Shown here piece by piece: positions 4,522 to 22,620 of a stretch of DNA of 64,000 nt. The position numbers and the translations under genes are program-made. The notes under the pieces were generated by a model. That model was not told the DNA's origin and did not search any database. It was given only the letters and a program-made list of their open reading frames with translations. The stretch is from NCBI GenBank assembly GCA_049968235.1, contig JBMFRC010000001.1, forward strand, positions 1-64,000. The letters are read 5' to 3'. Position 1 is the stretch's first letter. Each line of letters opens with the position of its first letter. Source of the DNA: Candidatus Hydrogenedens sp. (GTDB lineage Bacteria > Hydrogenedentota > Hydrogenedentia > Hydrogenedentales > Hydrogenedentaceae).

Positions 4522-6882
4522 ATGGCACAAATTTTTTCCAAAGGTAATATTAAACCTTTTACAATTGTCGGAATATTTATTCTTTTACTCTGGGGTTTTT
4601 ATTCTATTTATGATTGTTGGTCTCCTCCTGTGGTTCCTGTCGATGCCCCATCGGATAAGTTTTCAGCAGAGCGTGCTATAAAAGTTCTGGAATATCCGAC
4701 GACGATGATACATCCCTTTGGTTCTCAGGAAAATGCAAAAGTTCGTGAATATCTTGTTCAGAAACTTCGGTTATTAGGTGTGGAACCGGAGGTATATACG
4801 GGATATGTGAAACGTCCATCAAAACACGGATATAATAGTATGGAACGGGTAGATAGCATTATGGTTGTTTTGCCGGGTTATGCCCCTACCCGCTCTATCC
4901 TACTCATGGGACATTATGACTCTACACCTTATGGGGTAGGTTGTGCTGATGATGGTTCTGCTGTTGCAACAATGTATGAAACCCTACGTGCCTTGCTACA
5001 CAGTGCACCATTAAAAAACGATGTGATTTTCCTTTTTACCGATGGAGAGGAGGCTGGACTTTTAGGACCGCGTGCTTTTTTAAAACATCCTCTTTTTGAA
5101 ACAGTGGGTCTATGTTTAAATTTCGAAGCACGGGGACATTATGGTCCATCTATGATGTTTCAGATGAGTAATAACAATTCCTGGCTTATAAAAGAATTTG
5201 CCAAAGTAGTTCCTTACCCGCGCGCCAGTTCGATGATGTTTGAAGTTGCGGGGAAAATGCCGACAAGTACTGATTATTATGTACTCAAACCTAAAGGAGT
5301 ACCGGGATTCGATTTTGCTTTTGTCGGAGGTATCCGTTATTATCACACCCCTAACGATAACATTGCACACATTTCTCTTCGTTCTTTACAGCATCATGGG
5401 GAATATGCTTTACCTTTGGTAAAACATTTTGGCAATCTTGATTTATCTCATTTAACTATTGGCTATCCTTTTGAAGAACCTATTAATAACAGTACCTATT
5501 TTCCGTTACCCGGTAACCGATTGATAACCTACTCAGAAAAATGGGTATTACCCCTATTATTTTTAGCGATCTTCCTTTATATTGTTATGCTCTTTTCAAT
5601 TCGTTTGTTCTGGGGAATCCACATTCGAGATGTTATTATAAATTTTGTACGAAATGTAGTTCACACGTTGTTAATATTTACTGTGCTTGGTGGTTTGGTA
5701 GGATTAACTTTTCTTATATATAAGCATTACATAGTTTATTATGAACTTACTTACTTCGTTATGGGTCTATTAACTACATCGGGGTTATTTCTTATCTTTC
5801 TACCAATCATTTTTGCTCGGTTTGACCCCCATGTATTTTTTGCATCCGCATTGTTACCGTGGCTCGGTTTGGCTATATATTCCACTATAGAGGCACCTAC
5901 GGCAAGTTATATCCCTGTGTGGATATTGCTTATAGGAAGTACTTGTGGGATTATCTCTTGTATCCCCTACATTCCTCAGAAATGGCAACGAAGTTTTATC
6001 TGGCTCTCTTTCTGGACATTAATACCTACACTTGTAACTATATATTTTGTTACTCCTTTTCTGATTCTGGGGGTCCAAACTCTTACTCCTATATTCATTC
6101 CCATATTGATGATATTTCTTATTCTTATTTTCTATCTACCTGTGGGAATTGTACAAAACTTTGTTCAGAATAAGAAAACCTGCTATCGTTGGGGAATGAT
6201 TTTATTCGTTGCGGGACTTCTTATCTATGCATATCCCATGTTATTTTTCAAATTTACAAAAGAAACGCCTAAAGTGAATCATTTATGTTATGGATTGGAT
6301 TGGGACACAGGTAAGGCATGGTGGATGACAAGAGACTCTGAATTAGATGAATGGACAGAACAGTTTTTCAAGAAGGATGTACAATTAAAAAAACCGGAAC
6401 CGTTTACAGGGGATAATATTATAGTCCGCTTTGCTGAGGCACCTGTTGCAAGTTATCCACAACCTCTTTTATCAATATCGGAAGATAAAACAGAGGGGGA
6501 CATCCGACACATCAAGATTTCTGTAGTTTCATTGAGAAAATCCGCTGAGATGCATCTTACATTAATGGGAAAAATGGAAGTCTTGTCAGCAAAAGTAAAC
6601 GGAAACGACTTTGAGAATTCAGAGGGGAAAATTATTCAGGATTGGCATTTCAATTATCGCGGTTTTCCCGGAGAAAATGGACTTACTGTAGAATGGAGGT
6701 TAAAACCTCAACAACCCTTGTCTCTTCAGGTTATTGAAAAAAGTTATGTAATACCCCCTATCGCAGGAATAGAGATACCCCCACGACCCGATTATATGAT
6801 TGCCGAACCCAATACTGTTGAGTGGTGGAAACCCTTCCGAAGTAATGCCATTTATACTCGAAAAACCTTTAATTTAAACTAA
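4522..6882 (+). CDS. M28-family Zn aminopeptidase domain fused to a large polytopic membrane domain
   Basis: MGHYDSTPYGVGCADDGSAVA...DVIFLFTDGEEAGLLGPRAF gives M28 metal-ligand motifs. At least 8 hydrophobic helices follow (aa about 340-560), then a soluble C-terminal domain. Confidence 0.7.
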   Translation: MAQIFSKGNIKPFTIVGIFILLLWGFYSIYDCWSPPVVPVDAPSDKFSAERAIKVLEYPTTMIHPFGSQENAKVREYLVQKLRLLGVEPEVYTGYVKRPSKHGYNSMERVDSIMVVLPGYAPTRSILLMGHYDSTPYGVGCADDGSAVATMYETLRALLHSAPLKNDVIFLFTDGEEAGLLGPRAFLKHPLFETVGLCLNFEARGHYGPSMMFQMSNNNSWLIKEFAKVVPYPRASSMMFEVAGKMPTSTDYYVLKPKGVPGFDFAFVGGIRYYHTPNDNIAHISLRSLQHHGEYALPLVKHFGNLDLSHLTIGYPFEEPINNSTYFPLPGNRLITYSEKWVLPLLFLAIFLYIVMLFSIRLFWGIHIRDVIINFVRNVVHTLLIFTVLGGLVGLTFLIYKHYIVYYELTYFVMGLLTTSGLFLIFLPIIFARFDPHVFFASALLPWLGLAIYSTIEAPTASYIPVWILLIGSTCGIISCIPYIPQKWQRSFIWLSFWTLIPTLVTIYFVTPFLILGVQTLTPIFIPILMIFLILIFYLPVGIVQNFVQNKKTCYRWGMILFVAGLLIYAYPMLFFKFTKETPKVNHLCYGLDWDTGKAWWMTRDSELDEWTEQFFKKDVQLKKPEPFTGDNIIVRFAEAPVASYPQPLLSISEDKTEGDIRHIKISVVSLRKSAEMHLTLMGKMEVLSAKVNGNDFENSEGKIIQDWHFNYRGFPGENGLTVEWRLKPQQPLSLQVIEKSYVIPPIAGIEIPPRPDYMIAEPNTVEWWKPFRSNAIYTRKTFNLN

Positions 6883-9367: not shown

Positions 9368-9538
9368 ATGCAAAAAGCAGTGATTATCCAATCAAATGGG
9401 ACAGGAAAAAATGACCTTGAATATCTACTTCGTCAGGGCTGGAAAGTGGTTTCTATTACACCGAATAATGGTCCCAGTTATAACGATTTTTTGATTATTG
9501 TTCAGAAAGATAACGATACAAATTCTTCAGAGACATAG
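9368..9538 (+). CDS. Possible small protein (56 aa)
   Basis: ATG preceded by gaggg. MQKAVIIQSNGTGKNDLEYLLRQGWKVVSITPNNGPSYNDFLIIVQKDNDTNSSET. Sits in an otherwise empty 385-nt intergenic region. Confidence 0.3.
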   Translation: MQKAVIIQSNGTGKNDLEYLLRQGWKVVSITPNNGPSYNDFLIIVQKDNDTNSSET

Positions 9539-9644
9539 TTTAAAATATGTAAACCGTATATATACAACGGGTTAATGAATAGAGTACGGGTGATTTTTTA
9601 AAACACGAAAAATAATGCTTATTCTGATGAATATATCCTGATAA

Positions 9645-11099
9645 ATGCCCCAAATAAAATATATGTTCTTTGGGCGAGGTCTTTTTTGCTATAATTTTTT
9701 AATATTTATAATGAGAAGAAGTTTGAATATGAACCGTAGGGATTTTTTAAAATCGAATGGATTAATGGTTTTATCATTAGCGACATGGGGAATTATGAGA
9801 AAGTGCTATGCAAATACGGAAATTCGAATAGCACCCTTTAAGGCTGATGCAACCCCTCCATTAGGAACGCCATGGTATCCAAGTTATAAACCCTTAGACA
9901 AAATTGAGCATCCCTTACTCGCAAAGGGCATTATTATTGAAGACCATCAAAACCGATATGTTCTTTGTGCAATTGATTGGTGCGAGATAATTAATGATTC
10001 TTATTACAGACTTCGAGAAATGATTGCAAATGCAGTAAAAACAGACCCAAATGCTGTATTTGTGCAGACGGTTCATCAACACACCGCACCGATGAGTAAT
10101 AATAACATATATGAAATTCTTGCAAAGATAGAAAATCCACCTCCTTTCCCCGCGAAAGAAGCCTTTGAACCATCATTTGAAAATATCGTTCAAGCAGTGG
10201 AGAAAGCAATATCTTTATTAGAACCATGCGATACGATGGAGATTGGCTCAGCCAAAGTGGAAAAGGTTGCGTCCAGTCGGCGGATACTTCAGCCGGATGG
10301 TACCTGTCTTACCCGTTTTAGTTCCTGTAAAGACCCAAAGTTAATTGAAGCACCCGAAGGACTAATTGACCCGTATCTACGGACTTTGAGTTTTAAATCA
10401 ACTAAGGGGAAACCCATCGCGAGATTGCACTTTTATGCTACACATCCGCAGAGTTTTTATGGGGATACACGAGCCAGTTATGATTTTCCGGGTATGGCAC
10501 GGGAGAAAATGGAATCAGATGAAGGTGTTCCGCATATTTATTTTACAGGCTGTGCCGGAGATATCGCCGCGGGGAAATATAACGATGGGACACCTCAAGC
10601 ACGGGAGCAATTATATCAACGAATGCTTTCCGCAATGCAAAGTTCTGTCCAGTCATTACAAAAAGACCCTGTACCTAAAATTACATTAAAAACAATACCC
10701 TTAATATTTGGGCATAGAACTGAGGGAGAATATTCGAAGGAGAATCTGGAAAAGAATTTGAATGATACGACAAAAGAGCCGAATTATCGAATTGGTTCTG
10801 CCATGGAAATTGCATGGCAAAGCCGTGCTGATACAATACCTATTCCCATTAGTGCTTTACATATCGGGAATGTGTCTATACTGCATCTGCCGGGGGAACC
10901 TATGATTGAATTTCAACTCTTTGCTCAGAAATGCACACCCAACCGCACTGTACTTGTAGGGGCGTATGGAGATTGTGGACCTTCATATATATGCACGGAA
11001 GAATCTTTCAAACAGGGAGGATATGAACCTTCTGCATCAGGTTCTCCACCATCTACCGAATGGAAACTTAAAGAAACTATTCAACAGGTACTTTCTTAG
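9645..11099 (+). CDS. Tat-exported hydrolase-like protein, paralog 1 (possibly neutral/alkaline ceramidase-like)
   Basis: Twin-arginine signal MNRRDFLKSNGLMVLSLATWG; probable true start near 9729. Motifs ADATPPLGTPWYPSY, GIIIED..RYVLCAIDWCEI, VHQHTAPM. About 60% identical to the downstream paralog. Confidence 0.5.
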   Translation: MPQIKYMFFGRGLFCYNFLIFIMRRSLNMNRRDFLKSNGLMVLSLATWGIMRKCYANTEIRIAPFKADATPPLGTPWYPSYKPLDKIEHPLLAKGIIIEDHQNRYVLCAIDWCEIINDSYYRLREMIANAVKTDPNAVFVQTVHQHTAPMSNNNIYEILAKIENPPPFPAKEAFEPSFENIVQAVEKAISLLEPCDTMEIGSAKVEKVASSRRILQPDGTCLTRFSSCKDPKLIEAPEGLIDPYLRTLSFKSTKGKPIARLHFYATHPQSFYGDTRASYDFPGMAREKMESDEGVPHIYFTGCAGDIAAGKYNDGTPQAREQLYQRMLSAMQSSVQSLQKDPVPKITLKTIPLIFGHRTEGEYSKENLEKNLNDTTKEPNYRIGSAMEIAWQSRADTIPIPISALHIGNVSILHLPGEPMIEFQLFAQKCTPNRTVLVGAYGDCGPSYICTEESFKQGGYEPSASGSPPSTEWKLKETIQQVLS

Positions 11100-11179
11100 G
11101 AACATTTGCGGGGAAAAACATATAGATGAAATTTTAGACATTTTATAAACACACAAAGAACATTTAGAGGAATTATGTC

Positions 11180-12547
11180 ATGAAGCGTCGCAGGTTTCTA
11201 CAAGTACAAACTGCAGGGATGTTATCTTTTCTCTCCGGGACATTGATGAAAAAAGCATCCGCAAATGTTTCTTTACATATTGCCCCGTTCAAATGTGATG
11301 CTACTCTACCATTGGGGACACCGTGGTATCCCAGTTATAAGCCTCTGGATACAATTGAACATCCTTTGCTTGCAAAAGGAATAATTATTGAATCGGAAAA
11401 ACAAAGATATGTATTGTGTGCAATTGATTGGTGTGAAATTACAAATCGTTCATATTATCGTTTATGCGAATTAATTGCAAATACGGTCAAAACAGAACCG
11501 CATGCTGTTTTTATTCACACGGTTCATCAACATACTGCTCCGATGTGTGATGAATCTGCCTTTGATATTATTAGTACAATTCCAAATCCACCACCTTGCC
11601 CTAAAAATGAAGTTTTCGAGGACATTTTTAAAAGAATTCTTCAATCTGTTGAAAACGCCTTGTCACAATTAACTCCATGTAATTCGTTGGAAATGGGTAA
11701 AGCAAAAATAGAAAAAGTCGCATCCAATCGCCGTGTTATCATGCCCGATGGTAAAATAGCCACTCGTTCCAGTTCATGTAAAGACCCAAAACTCATTGAA
11801 GCGGAAGAAGGATTAATAGACCCCTTTTTACGGACTTTAAGTTTTACATCAAAGGGGGGCAAACCTATTGCTCGATTACATTATTACGCTACACATCCAC
11901 AGAGTTTTTATTGGGACCCACGAGCCAGTTATGATTTTCCGGGCATGGCTCGTGAAGAAATGGAACAGACAGAAGGAATCCCTCATATTTACTTTACAGG
12001 CTGTGGTGGTGATGTTGCCTGTGGTAAATATAACGATGGTTCTACGGAAGCACGCCACCATTTATACCAGCGAATGTTAGAAGGTATGCAGAAATCGATA
12101 CAGTCATTACAAAAGGATATTATTACAGAACCAAATCTCCAAGTTACTTCTGTTTTCCTAAAACCTTCTGATGAAAAACATCATAGTAGAGAATATTTGG
12201 AACAATTAATGAATGATGGAGCGCAAAAACCCCATGTTCGGATAGATTCTGCAATGGAGTTAGCATGGAAAAATCGTTCATCACAACCGATACCTATTGC
12301 CTGTCTGCATTTTGGTAATGTGTCAATTTTAAGTTTACCCGGTGAACCCATGGTGGATTTTCAATTATACGCCCAACAATGTGCTGAAAAACATCATGTT
12401 CTTGTGGCAGGTTATGGAGATTGTGGACCGTCCTATATTTGCACAGAGAAATCGTTCAAAGAAGGGGGTTATGAACCCTATGCTTCACATGTCATTCCCC
12501 TATCCGAAAAAACACTAAAATCTGCAATAGAAAGAGTAATTTCTTAA
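11180..12547 (+). CDS. Tat-exported hydrolase-like protein, paralog 2
   Basis: MKRRRFLQVQTAGMLSFLSG is a Tat signal. Colinear with 9645-11099 (IAPFKCDATLPLGTPWYPSYKPLDTIEHPLLAKGIIIE...). Confidence 0.5.
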   Translation: MKRRRFLQVQTAGMLSFLSGTLMKKASANVSLHIAPFKCDATLPLGTPWYPSYKPLDTIEHPLLAKGIIIESEKQRYVLCAIDWCEITNRSYYRLCELIANTVKTEPHAVFIHTVHQHTAPMCDESAFDIISTIPNPPPCPKNEVFEDIFKRILQSVENALSQLTPCNSLEMGKAKIEKVASNRRVIMPDGKIATRSSSCKDPKLIEAEEGLIDPFLRTLSFTSKGGKPIARLHYYATHPQSFYWDPRASYDFPGMAREEMEQTEGIPHIYFTGCGGDVACGKYNDGSTEARHHLYQRMLEGMQKSIQSLQKDIITEPNLQVTSVFLKPSDEKHHSREYLEQLMNDGAQKPHVRIDSAMELAWKNRSSQPIPIACLHFGNVSILSLPGEPMVDFQLYAQQCAEKHHVLVAGYGDCGPSYICTEKSFKEGGYEPYASHVIPLSEKTLKSAIERVIS

Positions 12548-12622
12548 AAAGTATTCGATCAATTTGTATTCAAATTTTTTCTTTTTATATTTCTGTATAA
12601 TCTGTATAATTACAAACAAATT

Positions 12623-13987
12623 TTGAATGAAATAAGTAAGTATATGAATAACCCATTGGTGCGTGTTCTGGTATTAAATTGGAATGGAATGGAACATCTG
12701 GAAGAATGTTTTTCGTCCCTGATAAAGGGGTGTCAACGCGAGGATGTAGAATTTGTCCTTTTAGATAATGCCAGTACGGATGAATCCGTATCTTTTGTGC
12801 AGGAACAGTTCGGTAATGACCCGCGTGTAGTTACGGAATGTCTGGATAAAAACTATGGCTGGGCAGGAGGAAATAATCGGGGAATTATAAAATCTATTGA
12901 GAAGAGGGCAAAATATATTTTTCTACTGAATAATGACACAAAAGTAGAGCAGAATTGTATAGAAAATCTAATTGAAATGTCTGAGGCGAACCCGCATATT
13001 GGTGGGCTGGCTCCCAAAATGCTTCTTTATAGCCAGCCCTGGCTTTTAAACTCGATAGGATTGGAATGTTCTATCATAGGCTCTGCATGGGACCGTGGCT
13101 TGGGTCGCGTAAATAATGAACGATGGGATAATATAGAAGAAGTCATCGGTATTTGTGGTGGTGCAATGTGGTTAAGGTCAGATGTGTTAATACAAACGGG
13201 ATATTTACCTGAGGAATTCTCGATTTACCTTGATGACCTGGATTTGTGTCTACGTATCTGGGATGCGGGCTATCGAATATTGACCTGCCCAAACGCTATT
13301 GTCCGGCATAAGTTCAGTGCTACATGGGAAAGTTCACCCGACAAGGGAAAACATAAGTATTTTTTGAATACTCGAAATCGCTTTTACCTTATGGAACGAA
13401 ATTTTCCTATTAGTAAAATTTTTAGTATATTGTTATGGACAAAATGGGGAGAAATAAAATCTATAGGAAATGCTATTCGAAAAACAGAATTCTGGCGAAT
13501 ACAAAAACATATTCAGTCATGGATTGAAGCAGTTCGATATATCCCTGAAGCAAGGAGATATAGAAAGGCAAAAACAATCAAAACTCAGGAATATAGCAAT
13601 TTGCCTCCTTATTGGCATTTGATACAGAAAAAAATCTTGTTTTGTCCAGAGATTGAACTTCCTGTAAAAGGCTGGTATAAACCCGTTTCTATCTCTGGGG
13701 AAAAATTTTTTCCCATGAGCAAGTATGCAGAACTAAAACATAGAGGAGGGGCTTTTTCTTTTATATGTGGGAATATTACTCCAGAAAAAACTGAGATTCA
13801 AATTGATATAAAGTATAATGGGGAACTCGTAGGCAATATTAGAACAACAGAATTAAAAAAATATTCTTTTGAGTTGCCTGCAGGGATAATAATATTTGAA
13901 GCAAAACATATATTGGAAATGGAACAAACGGGGGAGCCTTATGATATAGGAGGTTGGTTCCAGTTTGAAAATTTACTTCCTTTATAG
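12623..13987 (+). CDS. Family 2 glycosyltransferase
   Basis: VLVLNWNGMEHLEECFSSL...LLDNASTDESV and DDLDLCLR are GT2 (GT-A) motifs with a DxD-like element. Confidence 0.7.
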   Translation: MNEISKYMNNPLVRVLVLNWNGMEHLEECFSSLIKGCQREDVEFVLLDNASTDESVSFVQEQFGNDPRVVTECLDKNYGWAGGNNRGIIKSIEKRAKYIFLLNNDTKVEQNCIENLIEMSEANPHIGGLAPKMLLYSQPWLLNSIGLECSIIGSAWDRGLGRVNNERWDNIEEVIGICGGAMWLRSDVLIQTGYLPEEFSIYLDDLDLCLRIWDAGYRILTCPNAIVRHKFSATWESSPDKGKHKYFLNTRNRFYLMERNFPISKIFSILLWTKWGEIKSIGNAIRKTEFWRIQKHIQSWIEAVRYIPEARRYRKAKTIKTQEYSNLPPYWHLIQKKILFCPEIELPVKGWYKPVSISGEKFFPMSKYAELKHRGGAFSFICGNITPEKTEIQIDIKYNGELVGNIRTTELKKYSFELPAGIIIFEAKHILEMEQTGEPYDIGGWFQFENLLPL

Positions 13988-14036
13988 ATTTTTATAATAT
14001 TACAAGATATATGAAAATGAATAAGGATATAAGGTA

Positions 14037-16400
14037 ATGCTGAAAGAAAATAAAAAATCACAGACTTTGAAAAATCTCTTCTGGCGGAATTTTTTCCTTT
14101 TTTTTATTCTTATCATCGTAATCGGTGTTTCATGGTGGTTTGGTTCAATCGCGGGGAAATATTCGCTCCATGATTTGATAACGAAACCATTACCACCAGT
14201 TCCACCCAAAGAAGCAATGAAAGAAAAAGAGCAAAATAAAGAGGAGACTCCTCCTTTTTTTATATATGTGGGCGGAGAGCCTTGTAGCGAAGTCGCTCAA
14301 AAAGAGTTTATGCATGCAAAGGAAGCAGGAATTGTTAATTATATTATCGATGTTCCATTTCCATGGAGGGGTTCGGATGATTTACCGGAATTGTTTCGTA
14401 TTCTTCAATGTATTAATGATGTTGACCCTCATGGGAAGTATTGGATTTATCTGGACCTGAATCCTCCTAATTTCTGGTTTTCAGGTAAGAAATCCGCCAA
14501 TATGATAGTTAATGGAGAGATTCAACCTTATGCTTGTTTTAATGCTCCATCGTGGAAAAAAGCAATTGAAGAATCTTTTGTTTTGTTAATAAGTAGTCTT
14601 CGCTCTTCCAAAATTGGTGGACAGGTAGGTGGATATATTTTAGGATTTCTAAAGAATCGCTGGTGGATTTCGCCGGGATTGGACGAGTCGGAGTTTTCTC
14701 TAACAAATTTTAATAAGTGGATACAAAATCATTATCCCTCAGCAGAAGAGCGTATTCAATTATTCGGAGCGGATACACTTGAACCTTCACTTATTCTTGA
14801 TGGATTGCACAAAGAAACCGGGACATCCTCCAACTACTTAAATCCTGTGGAACATCGTATTTTAATAAACTACCGTCGTTTTTTCAATGAGAGTCTGGCA
14901 AATAGTATTGGTTTCTGTGCCATGACATTAAGGCAGTTACTTCAGGATACAAAAGCAAAGATTTATATTCCGTATGGGCTGAATATGGAGACAGCAGATA
15001 CAGCAACAGGGCAATTTTCATTAGATTCAATAGTAGAAAGTGATGTAGATGGCTTTATTCTTCCCATATCTTACATAAATCGGGGATTGGGTGAATCGGG
15101 AGGACCCTCAGGGACAATAGAAACTTTATCTCTTCATGGGAAAGATGTCTTACTTTTTGATGATACCCGAACCGGTATTTCCTTTGATGCTTCAACTCGA
15201 CAAATAGTACGGGTAAAAGGAGTGCGGGCAGAAAATATTTTTGCGGTTCAAAAACGAAATATGGGGTTGGCTCTTGTTCATAATGCTGGTTTGATATGGA
15301 CAGACCCGGAAGGGAAGGGGTGGCTTTTGGATGTAGAACAATGGGATTTGTTTGAAAAAATGATACAAATTTCAACTCGAATTCTAACTCAGGAGGGTAA
15401 ATTGCAAAAACTGCGACTTCAACCCCGAAAGATACATGGAGTCCCTAATGAAAATGCAATAACGGAAGACCATATACTACCCCGTTTGCAGGTAGGAAAG
15501 TTCAACACCGAGGAAGTGCAAACAGAATATCCTCCTGTAGTTCCGTCAGAAAATATTCTCTGGGAACCTCTGGCTATGATTATTGATGAGCGGGCAATGC
15601 ACCTGCTTAGCCCAAAAGGGATTGAATTCTACTCGTCAAGTATCGCTAATGTTCGTGACCAACTTTTGAAAGTGGGTTTGCCCATAGAATTTTATCTCAT
15701 GCAAGATTTACTTGATGAACGTATTCCAAAAAAACTGATTTATTTTATTTTCAATCTTTATCCACCAACGGAAAAAGAAATTCAAACTTTACATCGTATT
15801 TTTGAAACAGATAAATCCATAGTAATATGGTATTACCTGCCTACATGGGGAATAGATACCGATAATGCAGAACTTGTTCGCCAGTTAACACAAATTGACG
15901 CAAAACTATTTGACACAGATATATCTGCAGGTTCTGTTTTAGAACTGGAAGGGAGATGGATAAATAAAGGAGACGCTTTTGGTGAACCTATATCTGTTTC
16001 GCCATTATTTTATATCGAAGATGAAAATGCAGATGTAATTGCTCGATACCAATCAAACGGTAAACCCAGTATTGCAGTTAAAACCATAAATGATAAGTGG
16101 GTATCTGTTTTTTATGCAGAACCTACCGTAAATCACCTTGCTATGCGTGAAATTCTTTCTATTTTAGAGGTGCCTACTGCTATTGCAGAAGGAAGTGTTG
16201 CGACACAGGATACACTTCTGGTTGGAACAAATATGCTGGTTCTACATACCAAAGGAATTGGAGACCGTATCTTACAATTCAACCAATTTTTGAACATTGA
16301 AAATTTATTTCAACCTGAACAAAAATGGTTTGAACGGGAAACACTTCTTCTATCTTTGGGTAGTGGAGAAACCGTATTTTTATTTTTCCAACCCCAATAA
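14037..16400 (+). CDS. Hypothetical 787-aa membrane-anchored protein (N-terminal TM, large extracytoplasmic domain)
   Basis: Single N-terminal hydrophobic helix FFLFFILIIVIGVSWWF. No recognisable motif. Sits between the GT2 and the oxidoreductase. Confidence 0.4.
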   Translation: MLKENKKSQTLKNLFWRNFFLFFILIIVIGVSWWFGSIAGKYSLHDLITKPLPPVPPKEAMKEKEQNKEETPPFFIYVGGEPCSEVAQKEFMHAKEAGIVNYIIDVPFPWRGSDDLPELFRILQCINDVDPHGKYWIYLDLNPPNFWFSGKKSANMIVNGEIQPYACFNAPSWKKAIEESFVLLISSLRSSKIGGQVGGYILGFLKNRWWISPGLDESEFSLTNFNKWIQNHYPSAEERIQLFGADTLEPSLILDGLHKETGTSSNYLNPVEHRILINYRRFFNESLANSIGFCAMTLRQLLQDTKAKIYIPYGLNMETADTATGQFSLDSIVESDVDGFILPISYINRGLGESGGPSGTIETLSLHGKDVLLFDDTRTGISFDASTRQIVRVKGVRAENIFAVQKRNMGLALVHNAGLIWTDPEGKGWLLDVEQWDLFEKMIQISTRILTQEGKLQKLRLQPRKIHGVPNENAITEDHILPRLQVGKFNTEEVQTEYPPVVPSENILWEPLAMIIDERAMHLLSPKGIEFYSSSIANVRDQLLKVGLPIEFYLMQDLLDERIPKKLIYFIFNLYPPTEKEIQTLHRIFETDKSIVIWYYLPTWGIDTDNAELVRQLTQIDAKLFDTDISAGSVLELEGRWINKGDAFGEPISVSPLFYIEDENADVIARYQSNGKPSIAVKTINDKWVSVFYAEPTVNHLAMREILSILEVPTAIAEGSVATQDTLLVGTNMLVLHTKGIGDRILQFNQFLNIENLFQPEQKWFERETLLLSLGSGETVFLFFQPQ

Positions 16401-16494
16401 AAACGAAACCAGAACGAATGAAAATGGTCTTTTTTATTTAGTATAATAGATAAACATATTTTTTTTGAACCTAAAATAATAAGGAGATTTTACA

Positions 16495-17802
16495 ATGACA
16501 CATTTATCAAGAAGAAGTTTCTTGAAAAGCACCGCGGTATTAGTTGCAGGAACTATGGCTGCAGGAAAAGTTTTCGGAGCCAATGACCGTATTGGAATTT
16601 GTACTATCGGATTTAATGGACAAGGTGGAAATCATATTAAAGACATTTTAGAAAAATCAAATGAAGCAGAAATAGTAGCTTTATGTGATGTTGATAAACG
16701 AGTACTGGAACGGATGGTTAAGATGGTGGGCTCTAAACAGGGCAAAACTCCGAAGGCTTATGAAGATTTTCGGGAAGCGGTCCAAGACCCGAATGTACAC
16801 GCTATCACCATTGCAACACCCAATCATACACATACATTGATTACAGTTACAGGATGCAAAGCGGGTAAAGATGTATATGTAGAAAAACCGTTATCGCACA
16901 ATATCTGGGAAGGCACACAATTGGTAGAAGCATCTAAAAAATATAATCGCATTGTTCAACATGGGACACAAAGCCGTTCCGATAACACATTAATTCGCGA
17001 CATTGGATTAATCCATAAAGGTTTTATTGGTAAAATCATGCATTCCCGTGGATATGTGTATAAGAATGGAAATCGTTTTGCGATAGGTCATGGTGAGCCA
17101 GGAACACCACCGGACTATCTAAATTGGACATTATGGCAGGGGACATCTCCTGACCATCCCTTTATGAAAAACAAAGACCGAAAAGATAAGCCCGGTTTAT
17201 ATGTGCATTATGATTGGCACTGGTTCTGGGAATATGGAAATGGTGAAATTGGAAATCAGGGTGTGCATGAAATGGATATAGCCTGCTGGGGACATAATCG
17301 AGGATTGCCCGTTAAAGTATATAGCACAGGTGGAAGATACGGCTGGGACGATGATGGACAAACACCTAATACTCAGGCAACATCATTTACTTATGAAGAC
17401 GGTTCTATGATTACATTTGAAGTCCGTAATTTAGGTTCATTCCAGGAAGCCGATGGCGGTGATTGTGGAAATAGTTTCTTCGGGACAGACGGGTACTATG
17501 TTCGTAGAAAAGGTTTCTTTGATTATAAGAATAAGCCCATTCCTGTGAATGACCCGTTACCCGAAGATTTAGATAAATGGGACCGTTTCTTCCGTGCTAT
17601 TCGTTCTCGTAAGGAAGAAGATTTGCCAGTCACTCCGTATGATGCTCATATTTCATGTGTGCATTGTCATCTGGGTAATGTTGCATATCGTGTGGGACGT
17701 TCTTTAGAATTTGACCCGAAAACGCTGACATTTAAAGATGAAGAAGCTAACAAACTGGTTAAACGCGAACATTATAGAGAAGGTTTTGAACCTGTTGCAT
17801 AA
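16495..17802 (+). CDS. Gfo/Idh/MocA-family oxidoreductase with Tat signal
   Basis: MTHLSRRSFLKSTAVLVAGTMAAG is a Tat signal. IGICTIGFNGQGGNHI Rossmann start and EKPLSHN match Gfo/Idh/MocA motifs. Confidence 0.75.
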   Translation: MTHLSRRSFLKSTAVLVAGTMAAGKVFGANDRIGICTIGFNGQGGNHIKDILEKSNEAEIVALCDVDKRVLERMVKMVGSKQGKTPKAYEDFREAVQDPNVHAITIATPNHTHTLITVTGCKAGKDVYVEKPLSHNIWEGTQLVEASKKYNRIVQHGTQSRSDNTLIRDIGLIHKGFIGKIMHSRGYVYKNGNRFAIGHGEPGTPPDYLNWTLWQGTSPDHPFMKNKDRKDKPGLYVHYDWHWFWEYGNGEIGNQGVHEMDIACWGHNRGLPVKVYSTGGRYGWDDDGQTPNTQATSFTYEDGSMITFEVRNLGSFQEADGGDCGNSFFGTDGYYVRRKGFFDYKNKPIPVNDPLPEDLDKWDRFFRAIRSRKEEDLPVTPYDAHISCVHCHLGNVAYRVGRSLEFDPKTLTFKDEEANKLVKREHYREGFEPVA

Positions 17803-18246: not shown

Positions 18247-18325
18247 CGGGGTGTAGCTCAGTCCGGTTTAGAGCGCTTGGTTCGGGACCAAGAGGCCGGT
18301 GGTTCAAATCCACTCACCCCGACCA
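18247..18325 (+). tRNA. tRNA-Pro (anticodon CGG), CCA encoded
   Basis: Cloverleaf with acceptor CGGGGTG/CACCCCG, anticodon loop TTCGGGA, T-loop GGTTCAAATCC, then CCA. Confidence 0.85.
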
Positions 18326-18770: not shown

Positions 18771-20237
18771 TTAAAAATCTATCTGGAATCGTGTTTGTAA
18801 AATTCCTAAATTACCATTATAAAGGTCATGCTCAATATTTGCCAGAGTATAATTCAAAAATACCCTCGTATTGGGATTTAAATACCAGTTTAGCCCCAAT
18901 GTCCAATCCTGTTCTTTTCCACCACGAATCATTCCACTATCCAAATCTATCCAAGAATAGCGTAACCCCAATTCCCATGCTCCCCATGAACCTGTTTTTG
19001 GTGAAAAATTATTTTTAGGTTTAATTCTGCTTAGAGTTCCCATTTTATTGTTATATGTTCGATTTTCTCCCGTAAAAAAATAACTTGTGTAAATGTATCC
19101 TCCTTGAAATTCTCTTGTACCTCCGAAGTTTGTATCTACACAGGATAGTGCCTGTTCTGCTTGAATGGAGAAAGGTCCATATATCCATAATAATTCTGAG
19201 CCTATCAAATCAACATCATCTGCCACTGCGTCTGCAATTCGGAAGCCTGCATATCGGTCTGTATCTAAATATGAAAAAGCAAGGGCACATTCAGGATTTG
19301 CTTTATAGCGGAATGGAGCACCATCAGGATTACGGTGGCTATAGGCTAAACCCAGATGTAGAAGTTTTCTCCCTTTATCTTCATACCATGGAATACCGAC
19401 TATACGACCGGTAACTGCATATCCCTGGTCATCATCACTATCATTATCCGAAGGGAAATCATCTGTCTCTTTGAATATGCCTGCCTGCCATATAAGTCTA
19501 TTTTGCAAGTGGGAATTAAATAGCATTATTCCGACATTCCGCTTTGGATTAAAAACATCATTAAAACCTCGTTCCATAAAGGTATTATAATTTGAGCTTG
19601 TCAATCGTTCCATTCCAAAAGGCTCACGGAAATGCCCTACTTGAATATTACCTATATATGGAATATCCGAAAGACCTATATATGTGTTTGTAAACTTGGC
19701 TCGACCTTCCATGTCTTTATCCCCGGCAAAATCAAATTCCATTCGATACAAAACGGAATCGTATATCTTTCCCGAAATATCTATTTTTGCTCTTCGGAAT
19801 TGTGTGCCATCATCTTCTTCTCCAAAAACAGAAACTAAATCCCCATCATTATCAAAAAAAACCCAATCCAATTGAACTCTCCCTCCTACCTGTAATTCAA
19901 AGGAACCATCCTGACTCTTGAAGGATAATCGGTCCTTCCACTGCGGGACTAATTCGGTAGAGGATTTATCTTCTTTTTTAACTTCAGGTTTACTCACAGA
20001 GACATTTTCTTTTGTAGACACATTTTCAGAGGTAGTTGCAGTGGATGTTGTTTGTTCTTTCCCTTTTAATAATACTTCTAATTCTTGAACCTTTTTTTCA
20101 AGAGACTCTATTCTTTGTATTAATTCTGTCTCTCTCTGTGTCCAATTTTCCTTTCCATCATCGGAGAAAACAAAATTTGCAGAGAAAGATAAAATTATAG
20201 GTATCATTACAATTGACAGCGTTTTGTTAAATCCCAT
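18771..20237 (-). CDS. Phosphate-selective porin O/P-family outer-membrane beta-barrel
   Basis: Signal peptide, a coiled-coil segment (ELIQRIESLEKKVQELEVLLKG), then WKDRLSFKSQDGSFELQVGGRVQLDWVFFDND, which is typical of OprO/OprP. C-terminal aromatic residue (..FQIDF). Confidence 0.7.
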   Translation of the reverse strand: MGFNKTLSIVMIPIILSFSANFVFSDDGKENWTQRETELIQRIESLEKKVQELEVLLKGKEQTTSTATTSENVSTKENVSVSKPEVKKEDKSSTELVPQWKDRLSFKSQDGSFELQVGGRVQLDWVFFDNDGDLVSVFGEEDDGTQFRRAKIDISGKIYDSVLYRMEFDFAGDKDMEGRAKFTNTYIGLSDIPYIGNIQVGHFREPFGMERLTSSNYNTFMERGFNDVFNPKRNVGIMLFNSHLQNRLIWQAGIFKETDDFPSDNDSDDDQGYAVTGRIVGIPWYEDKGRKLLHLGLAYSHRNPDGAPFRYKANPECALAFSYLDTDRYAGFRIADAVADDVDLIGSELLWIYGPFSIQAEQALSCVDTNFGGTREFQGGYIYTSYFFTGENRTYNNKMGTLSRIKPKNNFSPKTGSWGAWELGLRYSWIDLDSGMIRGGKEQDWTLGLNWYLNPNTRVFLNYTLANIEHDLYNGNLGILQTRFQIDF

Positions 20238-21530: not shown

Positions 21531-22007
21531 TTGCTAAAAATCATTGTAATTTGGAGTTACAAAATGTATCGACAAAAGATGATATTAAAAAAGAGTAAGA
21601 AAAAACAACAAGGCATGACACTAATAGAACTAATGTTTGCTGCAGGGGTATTAGCGTTTGTGCTAAGTATGATATTTACATCTGTTATAACTGTGGGTAT
21701 GAATCGTGAAATACATACACAACGATTGCAGGCAGAAAGTGTAGTTAATGAGATATTAGACCAAATTAGTCGTTCAGATAGTTCTCAGATATTGAATTTT
21801 CTTCCTGATATACCTAATTTACCGGGGACAAATGCGGTATTACGCGTGGAAGCGATAACAGGTGATGGAACACCCATTACATTACCCAGTCCTAATGCGA
21901 ATATCCATTTACCCAATCCTCTAGAAGTGCGTGTAACATTGACGTGGCAAACAACAGACCGTGGATATACAATAACCAAGAGAGGGTCCACTTATGTATC
22001 CAATTAA
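21531..22007 (+). CDS. Prepilin-type (type IV pilin / T2SS pseudopilin-like) protein
   Basis: Class III signal KKQQG|MTLIELMFAAGVLAFVLSMIF with G-1 and E+5. Probable start at 21564 (SD ggag). Confidence 0.7.
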   Translation: MLKIIVIWSYKMYRQKMILKKSKKKQQGMTLIELMFAAGVLAFVLSMIFTSVITVGMNREIHTQRLQAESVVNEILDQISRSDSSQILNFLPDIPNLPGTNAVLRVEAITGDGTPITLPSPNANIHLPNPLEVRVTLTWQTTDRGYTITKRGSTYVSN

Positions 22008-22620
22008 ACGCAATATACTTGGTATGACATTAATTGAATTAACCATGACAGTAGGTTTGATGGCAATTGTTATGGGAGCGTTATTTACACTTTCGTTGAG
22101 CCTGACCGATACAGTTCAAAATTATAACGCAACTATGACAGCGACAGACGAGGCACGTCGAGCATTACAAATTTTAATCCCTCGTTTATCTCATGCATCC
22201 CGGCAGACTGTAAATTGGAATGAATTACCGGGAACTGTCCTTCGATTTCGTATGCCAACGGATTTGGATGGGAATGGTACATGTGTAGATGTAAGTGGAA
22301 ACCTTGAATTAGGAAATGTTGTAACTGTACAACGGGATACACAGGACGCCAATAATGATGGGATGACAGATAATCAATTGGTCATGATTCAGGGAAATAA
22401 TGTTACTGTTCTGGCAAATCACTTATTTAATCCTCCTGAAGTGGGAAACCCGGATGGCACTTTTAATGATACCAATGGAAATGGGAGGTTAGACCGTGGC
22501 TTCTTTATTACTATAGATAATAACACTATTCAGGTTCATATTGATACGGTAGGTCAATCTCGTCGTGGACATCAGTTTGTAATAAATGTAGAAGAGCGTG
22601 TGGTTCCAAGAAATCCATAA
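21994..22620 (+). CDS. Prepilin-type pseudopilin-like protein 2
   Basis: NILG|MTLIELTMTVGLMAIVMGALF has G-1 and E+5. Overlaps the upstream gene by 14 nt. Confidence 0.7.
   Translation: MYPIKRNILGMTLIELTMTVGLMAIVMGALFTLSLSLTDTVQNYNATMTATDEARRALQILIPRLSHASRQTVNWNELPGTVLRFRMPTDLDGNGTCVDVSGNLELGNVVTVQRDTQDANNDGMTDNQLVMIQGNNVTVLANHLFNPPEVGNPDGTFNDTNGNGRLDRGFFITIDNNTIQVHIDTVGQSRRGHQFVINVEERVVPRNP

What the first reader, a model, noticed from the sequence alone, without database searches (positions are those of the whole stretch)
9645..17802. Tandem Tat-exported paralogous hydrolase-like proteins followed by GT2, a 787-aa unknown protein and a Tat-exported Gfo/Idh/MocA oxidoreductase
Two adjacent genes (484 and 455 aa, about 60% identical) with twin-arginine signals and motifs (ADATPPLGTPWYPSY; GIIIED..RYVLCAIDWCEI; VHQHTAPM) that I tentatively relate to the neutral/alkaline ceramidase N-terminal domain; this recognition is weak. 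They head a same-strand block with a GT2, a large N-terminally anchored protein of no recognisable family, and a periplasmic oxidoreductase, which suggests a periplasmic lipid or glycan remodelling module. A tandem duplication of a Tat-dependent hydrolase is noteworthy.
Basis: inference. Interest (0 to 1): 0.5.

Follow-up and report, generated by a model that had tools for sequence, protein, structure and literature searches.

The report
Tandem ceramidase-fold amidases plus glycan genes
Two neighbouring genes in a Candidatus Hydrogenedens genome encode exported zinc enzymes with the fold and catalytic residues of neutral ceramidase, members of a very large unstudied bacterial family, and they sit beside a more deeply conserved glycosyltransferase and membrane-anchored GH42-like pair and a periplasmic sugar dehydrogenase; this is a solid annotation gain, not a new kind of system.

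Summary

The "unrecognisable" 787-aa protein is a membrane-anchored, outward-facing distant GH42 relative (profile E 1.8e-9) without the GH42 acid/base glutamate.

The block is composite. GT2 plus the 787-aa gene is the deep core, joined by a trans-polyprenyl-diphosphate synthase in distant relatives. Gfo/Idh/MocA joins within Hydrogenedentota. The ceramidase-like genes are linked only within the genus; a sister-genus MAG carries its copy on another contig.

Most likely the block is a cell-envelope glycan or glycolipid module with periplasmic de-N-acylation, trimming and oxidation. The component identities are shown; the substrates and the coupling between the genes are inferred. I rate it a new variant of a known kind, of moderate interest.

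The parts
9729..11099 (+). CDL1: exported zinc amidohydrolase with the neutral-ceramidase fold (456 aa; the mechanical ORF begins at 9645). It has a twin-arginine signal (MNRRDFLK...CYA) and no ceramidase C-terminal domain.
   Evidence: ORF. PF04734 at 33.8 bits against a 32.1 cutoff. 63% identical to CDL2, with all catalytic motifs retained. The 456-aa gene call comes from the public record.
11180..12547 (+). CDL2: paralog of CDL1 (455 aa) with a twin-arginine signal (MKRRRFLQ...ASA). Proposed catalytic set: H116, H118, R184, H239, E389, Y419, Y431.
12644..13987 (+). Soluble family-2 glycosyltransferase with a C-terminal extra domain (447 aa; the ORF starts at a TTG at 12623). It is an orthologue of the GT2 that precedes 787-like genes in distant lineages.
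   Evidence: PF00535 at 50 bits. Best NCBIfam hit is rhamnosyltransferase-like, far below cutoff. No TM segment. 43% identical over the full length to the L096 GT2.
14037..16400 (+). 787-aa type-II membrane protein: one N-terminal TM helix (about residues 18-38, N-in), then a periplasmic GH42-like (beta/alpha)8 barrel, an alpha/beta domain and a beta-rich C-terminus. The GH42 acid/base Glu is not conserved. The conserved acidic residues are D216, D338, D375, D376 and D423.
16495..17802 (+). Tat-exported Gfo/Idh/MocA NAD(P) oxidoreductase of the glycoside-3-dehydrogenase-like group (435 aa).
   Evidence: PF01408, PF19051 and PF22725, with TAT_signal just under cutoff. Best NCBIfam hit is BT_2158_fam glycoside 3-dehydrogenase, 124.6 bits against a 750 cutoff. 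Best PDB hits are 8tdf and 8tdh, then DgpA and GH109. 94-95% identical across loci in which the 787-aa gene is 63-79% identical.

Best explanation
The region is a composite, probably co-transcribed cluster specific to the genus Candidatus Hydrogenedens.

Shown:
1. CDL1 and CDL2 are exported metallo-amidohydrolases with the complete catalytic domain of neutral ceramidase (HxH, Arg, His, Glu and two Tyr) but no C-terminal Ig-like domain. They belong to a very large uncharacterised family in Hydrogenedentota, Planctomycetota, Verrucomicrobiota, Acidobacteriota and other phyla.
2. GT2 plus the membrane-anchored, outward-facing GH42-like protein is the anciently linked pair. In distant relatives a trans-polyprenyl-diphosphate synthase sits between or beside them, and a PMT_2-type GT-C enzyme is often nearby.
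3. The last gene is a Tat-exported sugar dehydrogenase of the glycoside-3-dehydrogenase-like type.

Inferred mechanism:
- The cytoplasmic GT2 builds a sugar chain on an isoprenoid-lipid carrier or lipid.
- After export, the anchored GH42-like protein trims or transfers that glycan at the outer face of the inner membrane. It may use Asp residues in place of the canonical Glu acid/base.
- The two ceramidase-fold enzymes hydrolyse an N-acyl or N-acetyl amide on the glycan or glycolipid.
- The Gfo enzyme oxidises a sugar hydroxyl.

This division of labour resembles Pga and Pel exopolysaccharide systems, in which a glycosyltransferase is partnered by a periplasmic TIM-barrel hydrolase and a metal-dependent de-N-acetylase. 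The substrate of the ceramidase-fold enzymes is more likely an N-acylated sugar or lipid of bacterial or environmental origin than ceramide.
For: Component identities:
- CDL.
- 787-aa protein.
- Gfo.
- GT2.

Clustering:
- The gene order CDL(x1-2)-GT2-787-Gfo is kept in all genus-level loci (L001, L004, L005, L085-L092) despite 63-90% protein identity.
- Intergenic gaps are short, with no intergenic terminator.

Deep GT2/787 linkage with polyprenyl synthase:
- L002, L095, L096 and L097.
- PMT_2 lies nearby in L002 and L096.

Glycan-type context of the CDL family elsewhere:
- Tat-exported Gfo/Idh/MocA in 12-14 of 80 loci.
- DegT-type aminotransferases in 8 loci (one of those scanned has a near-threshold TAT_signal hit), sulfatases in 7 and DUF7133-HEAT-cytochrome c in 7.
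- GH28 next to the sister-genus copy.
- Fusion to an alpha/beta-hydrolase (esterase-like) domain in 5 loci.

Topology: GT2 has no TM segment. The 787-aa protein has one N-terminal TM with a net +4 charge on the N side.
Against: - No experiment or expression data exist. Co-transcription is only inferred from spacing.
- The CDL genes are unlinked from GT2-787-Gfo outside the genus, so their functional coupling may be recent or absent.
- GT2 is soluble, and no flippase, polymerase or exporter lies in the block.
- The 787-aa model is only moderately confident (pLDDT 60.8). The GH42 acid/base Glu is missing, so the protein may not be a hydrolase at all.
- The frequency of Gfo, sulfatase or DegT genes near CDL genes was not compared with a genome background. 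These gene families are very abundant in PVC bacteria.
- The H239 equivalence to the third Zn ligand rests on position and invariance, not on a printed alignment.
Confidence: 0.4

Rival explanations
1. Catabolic reading. The exported enzymes form a periplasmic breakdown route for imported N-acylated glycans or glycolipids, for example glycosphingolipid-like or N-acyl amino-sugar compounds in digester sludge. The GH42-like protein removes sugars, the ceramidase-fold enzymes remove the acyl or acetyl group, and Gfo oxidises the released or bound sugar at C3 as in the oxidative glycoside-cleavage pathway. GT2 would be a bystander.
For: - Elsewhere CDL genes sit beside degradative genes: sulfatases, GH28, DUF1501, Tat-Gfo and an esterase-like fusion.
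- The closest solved relatives of Gfo are 8TDF and 8TDH, which appear to belong with the 8TDI glucuronide-3-dehydrogenase structure, plus DgpA, an enzyme I recall as catabolic (the catabolic role is from my own knowledge).
- A phosphate-type porin and a nucleoside permease lie nearby.
Against: - The most deeply conserved partner of the 787-aa gene is a GT2 with a polyprenyl synthase, which is a biosynthetic signature.
- No transporter, SusC/D-like system or regulator lies in the block.
- The lyase and hydratase partners of the 3-keto-glycoside pathway (recalled from the literature, not checked here) are not in the block.
- The GH42-like protein lacks the canonical acid/base residue.
Confidence: 0.25
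2. The CDL proteins are genuine ceramidases that turn over sphingolipids, either the organism's own or those of prey or host, in the periplasm.
For: - The fold and every aligned catalytic residue of neutral ceramidase are retained.
- Pfam PF04734 is above its gathering score.
Against: - Identity to the solved ceramidases is only 14-18%.
- The C-terminal domain is absent.
- The position I equate by motif similarity with the GDVSPN serine (human Ser354) is Ala, Thr or Asn in this family. This equivalence is my inference from motif similarity.
- The family is expanded in tandem arrays, up to five copies, in polysaccharide-degrading phyla, next to sulfatases, sugar dehydrogenases and aminotransferases and not next to lipid genes.
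- No sphingolipid gene lies in the window.
Confidence: 0.1
3. There is no functional unit. The CDL pair simply lies upstream of an unrelated GT2-787-Gfo operon, and its conservation within the genus reflects short divergence time, not selection.
For: - Linkage is seen only among genus-level relatives.
- In the sister-genus MAG the CDL gene is on another contig, next to GH28, and GT2-787-Gfo there has a divergent radical-SAM gene upstream.
- Only 1 of 80 CDL loci has GT2 and the 787-aa gene.
Against: - The order persists while the proteins diverge to 63-70% identity, and through differential loss of one or the other CDL copy, with the survivor always directly upstream of GT2.
- The gaps are 76-81 bp with no terminator.
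Confidence: 0.3

Closest known systems
Neutral ceramidase (P. aeruginosa PaCD, PDB 2ZWS/2ZXC; human ASAH2, PDB 4WGK; Pfam PF04734 plus a C-terminal domain)
   Same: - The aligned residues are H116/H118 = H97/H99 (human H194/H196), R184 = R160 (R257), E389 = E411 (E540), Y419 = Y448 (Y579) and Y431 = Y460 (Y591).
- A review names His196, Arg257, Tyr579 and Tyr591 as catalytic (PMC6952831).
- Both are secreted or exported enzymes.
   Different: - Identity is 14-18%.
- CDL is about 425 mature residues against 630-670, and it has no C-terminal Ig-like domain.
- It carries a twin-arginine signal.
- It has family-specific motifs (AIDWCE, GCGGD(V/I)A(A/C)GKYN).
- The serine of the GDVSPN motif is apparently replaced.
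- The genomic context is glycan-related, not sphingolipid-related.
- The substrate is unknown.
GH42 beta-galactosidases (e.g. PDB 4UNI, 4UCF, 1KWG; Pfam PF02449), and the GH164 and GH14 barrels
   Same: - The N-terminal (beta/alpha)8 barrel is homologous: family profile E 1.8e-9, and several relatives score above the Pfam cutoff.
   Different: - The window protein itself gets no Pfam hit.
- It has an N-terminal membrane anchor and a periplasmic orientation. GH42 enzymes are soluble, and usually cytoplasmic to my knowledge.
- The GH42 'NE' acid/base aligns to the non-conserved R208-W209.
- The conserved acidic residues are Asp (D216, D338, D375, D376, D423).
- It is genomically coupled to a GT2 and a polyprenyl synthase.
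Glycoside 3-dehydrogenases of the Gfo/Idh/MocA family (BT_2158 family; PDB 8TDF, 8TDH, 8TDI; DgpA), and GH109
   Same: - The Rossmann N-domain and the PF19051 C-domain are present, along with a Tat signal.
- These proteins are the best PDB and NCBIfam relatives.
   Different: - It scores 124.6 bits against the 750-bit equivalog cutoff, so it is not an orthologue.
- The lyase and hydratase partners of that pathway (recalled from the literature, not checked here) are not in the block.
- The substrate is unknown.
Periplasmic modification enzymes of exopolysaccharide systems (PgaB, PelA). This is a functional analogy only.
   Different: - The amidohydrolase here has a ceramidase fold, not a CE4 fold.
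- GT2 is soluble, not a membrane-embedded synthase.
- There is no porin, TPR or c-di-GMP component.
- The analogy comes from my own knowledge of those systems and was not tested.

Membership tests
Neutral/alkaline ceramidase (PF04734 plus C-terminal domain) | Pfam PF04734 N-terminal (catalytic) domain at or above the gathering score | tested here: met
   33.8 bits (CDL1) and 35.3 bits (CDL2) against a 32.1 cutoff. Only profile positions about 36-230 of 509 are aligned. A 2015 paper reports that such partial hits are common for this model (PMC4443539).
Neutral/alkaline ceramidase (PF04734 plus C-terminal domain) | Three-dimensional fold of the catalytic domain | tested here: met
   [not shown]
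Neutral/alkaline ceramidase (PF04734 plus C-terminal domain) | Catalytic and Zn-site residues: HxH, Arg, Glu and two Tyr | tested here: met
   The profile alignment to 2ZWS and 4WGK places H116/H118, R184, E389, Y419 and Y431 on H97/H99, R160, E411, Y448 and Y460. These are 99-100% conserved in 100 sequences.
Neutral/alkaline ceramidase (PF04734 plus C-terminal domain) | Third Zn-ligand histidine (PaCD His204, human His303) | tested here: inconclusive
   H239 (YATHPQSF) is invariant in 100 of 100 sequences and lies in the Pfam-aligned stretch. No residue-level alignment of this segment was printed, so the equivalence is inferred.
Neutral/alkaline ceramidase (PF04734 plus C-terminal domain) | C-terminal Ig-like domain | tested here: not met
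   The proteins end at 455 and 456 aa. The structural matches cover only the catalytic part of the 630-672-residue targets (TMt 0.46-0.51). No second Pfam domain is found.
Neutral/alkaline ceramidase (PF04734 plus C-terminal domain) | Hydrolysis of ceramide | not testable with these tools
   This needs an enzyme assay.
Tat (twin-arginine) substrates | An N-terminal S/T-R-R-x-F-L-K-like motif, a weakly hydrophobic h-region and an AxA-type cleavage site | tested here: met
   The sequences read MNRRDFLK...CYA, MKRRRFLQ...ASA and SRRSFLK...VFGA. The maximum KD19 is below 1.3. RRxFL is the consensus among close relatives. However, only 38 of 100 diverse family members have a strict motif, and the Pfam TAT_signal hit for Gfo is 21.7 bits against 22.7. 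Export itself was not tested.
Glycoside hydrolase family 42 | Sequence homology of the catalytic barrel | tested here: met
   The family profile A3 matches GH42 structures at E 1.8e-9. Relatives pass PF02449 (P0272 at 52.7 bits). The window protein alone gets no hit.
Glycoside hydrolase family 42 | Acid/base glutamate in the N-E motif after strand 4 | tested here: not met
   The GH42 'NEY' motif aligns to R208-W209-W210, and the column is not conserved in the family.
Glycoside hydrolase family 42 | Nucleophile glutamate after strand 7 | tested here: inconclusive
   The HMM alignment stops before this region. The family has a conserved DD (D375, D376) at the end of a predicted strand.
Glycosyltransferase family 2 | GT-A domain matching PF00535, with a DxD-type motif | tested here: met
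   PF00535 at 50.1 bits against a 23.3 cutoff. The sequence contains YLDDLD. No NCBIfam equivalog is reached.
Gfo/Idh/MocA oxidoreductases; BT_2158 glycoside 3-dehydrogenase equivalog | Family domains, and the equivalog score | tested here: not met
   The family domains are met (PF01408 at 69 bits, PF19051 at 52 bits). The BT_2158 equivalog is not met: 124.6 bits against a 750 cutoff. The protein is therefore a member of the superfamily, not of the characterised orthologue group.

The most novel reading that the evidence does not exclude
The short ceramidase-fold family may be a previously unrecognised class of periplasmic de-N-acylases or de-N-acetylases acting on amino-sugar glycans. That would make it, in effect, a new carbohydrate-deacylase family built on the ceramidase scaffold. 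In PVC, Hydrogenedentota and Acidobacteriota bacteria it would work with Tat-exported DegT-type aminotransferases and Gfo/Idh/MocA or cytochrome-linked sugar dehydrogenases, in a periplasmic route that deacylates, deaminates and oxidises amino sugars. In Hydrogenedens it would have been recruited to a GT2/GH42-like envelope-glycolipid module whose GH42-like member, lacking an acid/base residue, acts on polyprenyl-phosphate-linked sugars.
Probability: 0.15. Interest if true: 0.65.

Novelty: new variant of a known kind. Interest (0 to 1): 0.35.

Why it matters
Thousands of proteins annotated only as "hypothetical" in environmentally important glycan-degrading phyla can now be described as intact, probably active, exported metallo-amidases of the neutral-ceramidase superfamily. 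Their weak, partial Pfam hits reflect limited model sensitivity, not truncated domains. Finding their substrate would fill a gap in how Planctomycetota, Verrucomicrobiota and Hydrogenedentota process N-acylated compounds outside the cytoplasm. Separately, the GT2 / polyprenyl synthase / anchored GH42-like trio defines a candidate envelope-glycolipid module, and a branch of the GH42 lineage that has lost the canonical acid/base residue. Neither point overturns current understanding; both are useful, testable annotation leads.

Tried and rejected
1. Cys-ligated cofactor. I considered that five conserved cysteines near the active-site motifs might bind an extra metal or Fe-S centre and so explain Tat export. 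In 100 diverse members they are only 39-90% conserved, so this is not a family feature.
2. Single-sequence searches of the paralog and the 787-aa protein against PDB sequences gave nothing significant. Only profiles and structure worked.
3. The word-indexed search made the 787-aa family look lineage-restricted, with 11 hits. The exhaustive profile search overturned this with 2,908 representatives. Repeating the word-indexed search with the broad profile added nothing.
4. Locus retrieval with the broad alignment failed because no stretch was conserved enough. The tighter alignment returned only 10, mostly close, metagenome loci. A viral-contig scan found nothing.
5. The promoter and terminator scan was uninformative: 39 promoter-like sites against 35 expected, and no intergenic terminators.
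6. Rfam found no riboswitch or leader, only two tRNAs.
7. Long CDL-family members (P0014, P0021, P0022) gave no Pfam domain for their extra regions.
8. The afdb50 fold library was unavailable.
9. Literature searches found no characterisation of the short bacterial ceramidase-fold family.
10. I did not test whether Gfo, sulfatase or DegT genes near CDL genes exceed a genome background, so I make no enrichment claim.

Full report
**Origin and observation.** The window comes from a Candidatus Hydrogenedens sp. MAG: exact matches carry ACP5UA_ locus tags on a 421-kb contig. Paralog 1 most likely starts at 9729 (MNRRDFLK, 456 aa), not 9645, because its alignment with paralog 2 begins there and the public gene call is 456 aa. 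GT2 is called from 12644 (447 aa). The paralogs are 63% identical. Intergenic gaps are 50-95 bp, and no terminator-like hairpin falls between the genes. The block is bounded upstream by aroD and a 56-aa ORF and downstream by a tRNA gene at 18247-18322.

**The paralogs (CDL1, CDL2).** Pfam places both just above the gathering score of PF04734, the neutral/alkaline ceramidase N-terminal domain (33.8 and 35.3 bits against 32.1). Only about 200 residues are aligned. NCBIfam has nothing, and single-sequence PDB searches are insignificant.

- An AlphaFold2 model of CDL2 built from 46 homologues is confident (pLDDT 92.3, pTM 0.89).
- Foldseek agrees (E 1.5e-24, TMq 0.68, TMt about 0.5). The low TMt reflects the absence of the ceramidase C-terminal domain from these 455-aa proteins.
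- A profile of the family aligns to both crystal-structure sequences as follows: VHQHTAP falls on THTHSGP (PaCD H97/H99, human H194/H196). NRR falls on R160 (R257), LPGE on E411 (E540), GPSY on Y448 (Y579) and GGYE on Y460 (Y591).
- A review attributes catalysis in the human enzyme to His196, Arg257, Tyr579 and Tyr591, with Ser354 supporting Arg257 (PMC6952831).
- The Zn-ligand assignments (H97/H204/E411/Y448 in PaCD; H194/H303/E540/Y579 in the human enzyme) come from my own knowledge of the structure papers.
- In 100 diverse family members, D83, H116, H118, H239 and E389 are invariant. R184, Y419 and Y431 are 99% conserved.
- The equivalence of H239 to the remaining Zn-ligand histidine is inferred from position and invariance only.
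- The residue I equate by motif with Ser354 is Ala, Thr or Asn in this family.

I conclude that these are intact, probably active metallo-amidohydrolases of the neutral-ceramidase superfamily, and a short-architecture variant of it. A 2015 study singled out PF04734 as the Pfam family with the most "unbounded partial" matches (PMC4443539). For this family, the partial hit is a sensitivity limit of the HMM and not a partial domain.

**Family size, distribution and context.** The word-indexed search returned more than 6,300 homologues, and every source name shown is "hypothetical protein". They come from Hydrogenedentota, Planctomycetota, Verrucomicrobiota, Acidobacteriota, Latescibacterota and Omnitrophota.

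In the best 80 loci the family is multi-copy in 15, including five tandem copies in a Pirellulales locus, so tandem duplication is typical of the family. Neighbours vary:

| Neighbour | Loci (of 80) |
|---|---|
| Gfo/Idh/MocA (Tat-type) | 12-14 |
| DegT-type aminotransferase (one scanned copy has a near-threshold TAT_signal hit) | 8 |
| Sulfatase | 7 |
| DUF1501 | 7 |
| DUF7133-HEAT-cytochrome c | 7 |
| CDL fused to an alpha/beta-hydrolase (DLH/glucuronoyl-esterase-like) domain | 5 |

A GH28 gene sits next to the sister-genus copy. I did not compare these frequencies with a genome background, so they describe the context but do not establish enrichment. GT2 and the 787-aa gene occur next to a CDL gene in only one of the 80 loci, and that locus is from the same genus. 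A strict twin-arginine motif is present in all close relatives but in only 38 of the 100 diverse sequences.

**The 787-aa protein.** On its own it has no Pfam, NCBIfam or PDB sequence match and only 11 word-indexed homologues. An exhaustive profile search nonetheless finds 2,908 representative clusters (534 at E <= 1e-30), including multidomain forms of 1,000-1,600 aa.

- Several relatives pass Pfam's GH42 model.
- A 42-sequence family profile hits GH42 beta-galactosidase structures at E 1.8e-9.
- The AlphaFold model is moderate (pLDDT 60.8) but shows an N-terminal helix, a beta/alpha-alternating barrel, an alpha/beta domain and a beta-rich C-terminus.
- Hydropathy shows a single TM at about residues 18-38, with a net +4 charge on the N side, so the large domain should face the periplasm.
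- In the HMM alignment the GH42 acid/base "NE" falls on the non-conserved R208-W209. The conserved acidic residues are all Asp: D216, D338, D375, D376 and D423.

The protein is therefore a GH42-derived scaffold whose chemistry may differ from that of a classical retaining hydrolase.

**Co-conservation.** In all genus-level loci the order CDL(x1-2)-GT2-787-Gfo is kept, while the 787-aa protein diverges to 63% identity.

- Two loci carry a single CDL copy directly upstream of GT2, flanked by LemA or RecG genes.
- A rough NJ tree suggests the duplication predates the sampled lineages and that one or the other copy was lost afterwards.
- In a sister-genus MAG (JAOAHN01), GT2-787-Gfo is intact, with a divergent radical-SAM gene upstream. 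That MAG's CDL homologue lies on another contig, next to GH28.
- At about 27-30% identity, the 787-like gene is preceded by an orthologous two-domain GT2 (43% identical to the window's) and a trans-type polyprenyl-diphosphate synthase in L002, L095 and L096. L097 shows the synthase alone, because the contig ends there. PMT_2 (GT-C) genes lie nearby in L002 and L096.
- Still more distant members (L094, L098, L099) show no GT2.

The layers of linkage are therefore GT2 + 787 (+ polyprenyl synthase), then Gfo, then CDL.

**Gfo.** The Pfam domains and a near-threshold TAT_signal hit are. The best NCBIfam model is the BT_2158 glycoside 3-dehydrogenase family, at 124.6 bits against a 750-bit cutoff. 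The best solved relatives are 8TDF and 8TDH, followed by DgpA and GH109; the 8TDI glucuronide-3-dehydrogenase is also on the list. The protein is unusually conserved, at 94-95% identity where its neighbours are 63-79%.

**Mechanism.**

- *Shown:* the component folds and families, the conservation of the catalytic residues, the predicted topology, and the gene-order layers.
- *Inferred:*
  - A soluble GT2 glycosylates an isoprenoid-linked acceptor in the cytoplasm.
  - The anchored GH42-like protein processes the product outside.
  - The CDL enzymes cleave an N-acyl or N-acetyl amide.
  - Gfo oxidises a sugar hydroxyl.
- This resembles the split between a glycosyltransferase, a periplasmic TIM-barrel hydrolase and a metal-dependent de-N-acetylase in Pga and Pel systems. 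That comparison is an analogy from my own knowledge and was not tested.

Three rivals remain open: a catabolic route for exogenous N-acylated glycoconjugates, genuine ceramidase activity, and mere adjacency without functional coupling.

**Verdict.** The ceramidase-fold assignment is now firm. Membership of the ceramidase family in the strict sense fails on the C-terminal domain, and the substrate was not tested. The region is a new variant of known kinds, not a new system, and is of moderate interest (0.35).

Noticed in passing
window 16495-17802; loci L004, L005, L085-L091: The Gfo/Idh/MocA protein is 94-95% identical across loci in which the adjacent 787-aa, GT2 and CDL proteins are only 63-80% identical. 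This is unusually strong constraint on one gene of the block.
   Followed up: no
L018 8821-16203: Five tandem same-strand copies of the ceramidase-fold gene in a Pirellulales MAG, followed directly by a DUF7133-HEAT-cytochrome c protein.
   Followed up: partly
L022 7743-10466; also L035, L045, L047, L048: The ceramidase-fold domain is fused to a C-terminal alpha/beta-hydrolase domain of about 350 aa, with weak dienelactone-hydrolase and glucuronoyl-esterase matches. The loci come from Verrucomicrobiota and Planctomycetaceae MAGs. This suggests a substrate carrying both ester and amide groups.
   Followed up: partly
L058 11313-12641; L009 12995-14329; L013, L016: DegT/DnrJ/EryC1-type PLP aminotransferases lie close to ceramidase-fold genes: 26-220 bp away in L058, L013 and L016, and about 1.7 kb away in L009. 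The L009 copy has a near-threshold Pfam TAT_signal hit, and the L058 copy shows an RRAFIK motif. A periplasmic sugar aminotransferase would be unusual.
   Followed up: partly
L087 5027-6390: The CDL2 orthologue matches in two pieces in different frames (5027-5476 and 5473-6390). This is either a frameshift, making it a possible pseudogene, or an assembly error.
   Followed up: no
window 9369-9539 (+): A 56-aa ORF (MQKAVIIQSNGTGKNDLEYLLRQGWKVVSITPNNG...) lies in the 471-bp gap between aroD and CDL1. It is also called as a gene in the public record (L001 1783-1953; sequence). No family was assigned.
   Followed up: no
window 18247-18322 (+): A tRNA gene (Rfam, 67.5 bits) lies in the gap of about 970 bp between Gfo and the divergent phosphate-selective porin O/P gene at 18771-20237 (-). 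It marks the downstream end of the block.
   Followed up: partly
window 4522-6882 (+): A 786-aa protein combines an N-terminal M28 peptidase domain (147 bits) with a long, very hydrophobic, polytopic-looking middle region and a soluble C-terminal part.
   Followed up: no
L002 3222-5713: A restriction-modification pair (an Eco57I-type gene and a BsuBI/PstI-type endonuclease) is inserted between the PMT_2 gene and the GT2-polyprenyl synthase-787-like module in a distant relative.
   Followed up: no
window 21531-22620 (+): Two adjacent small proteins have prepilin-type N-termini (GMTLIELMFA, GMTLIELTMT), which suggests a pseudopilin or type IV pilin-like operon downstream of the region (the N_methyl hit in L001 is).
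   Followed up: no
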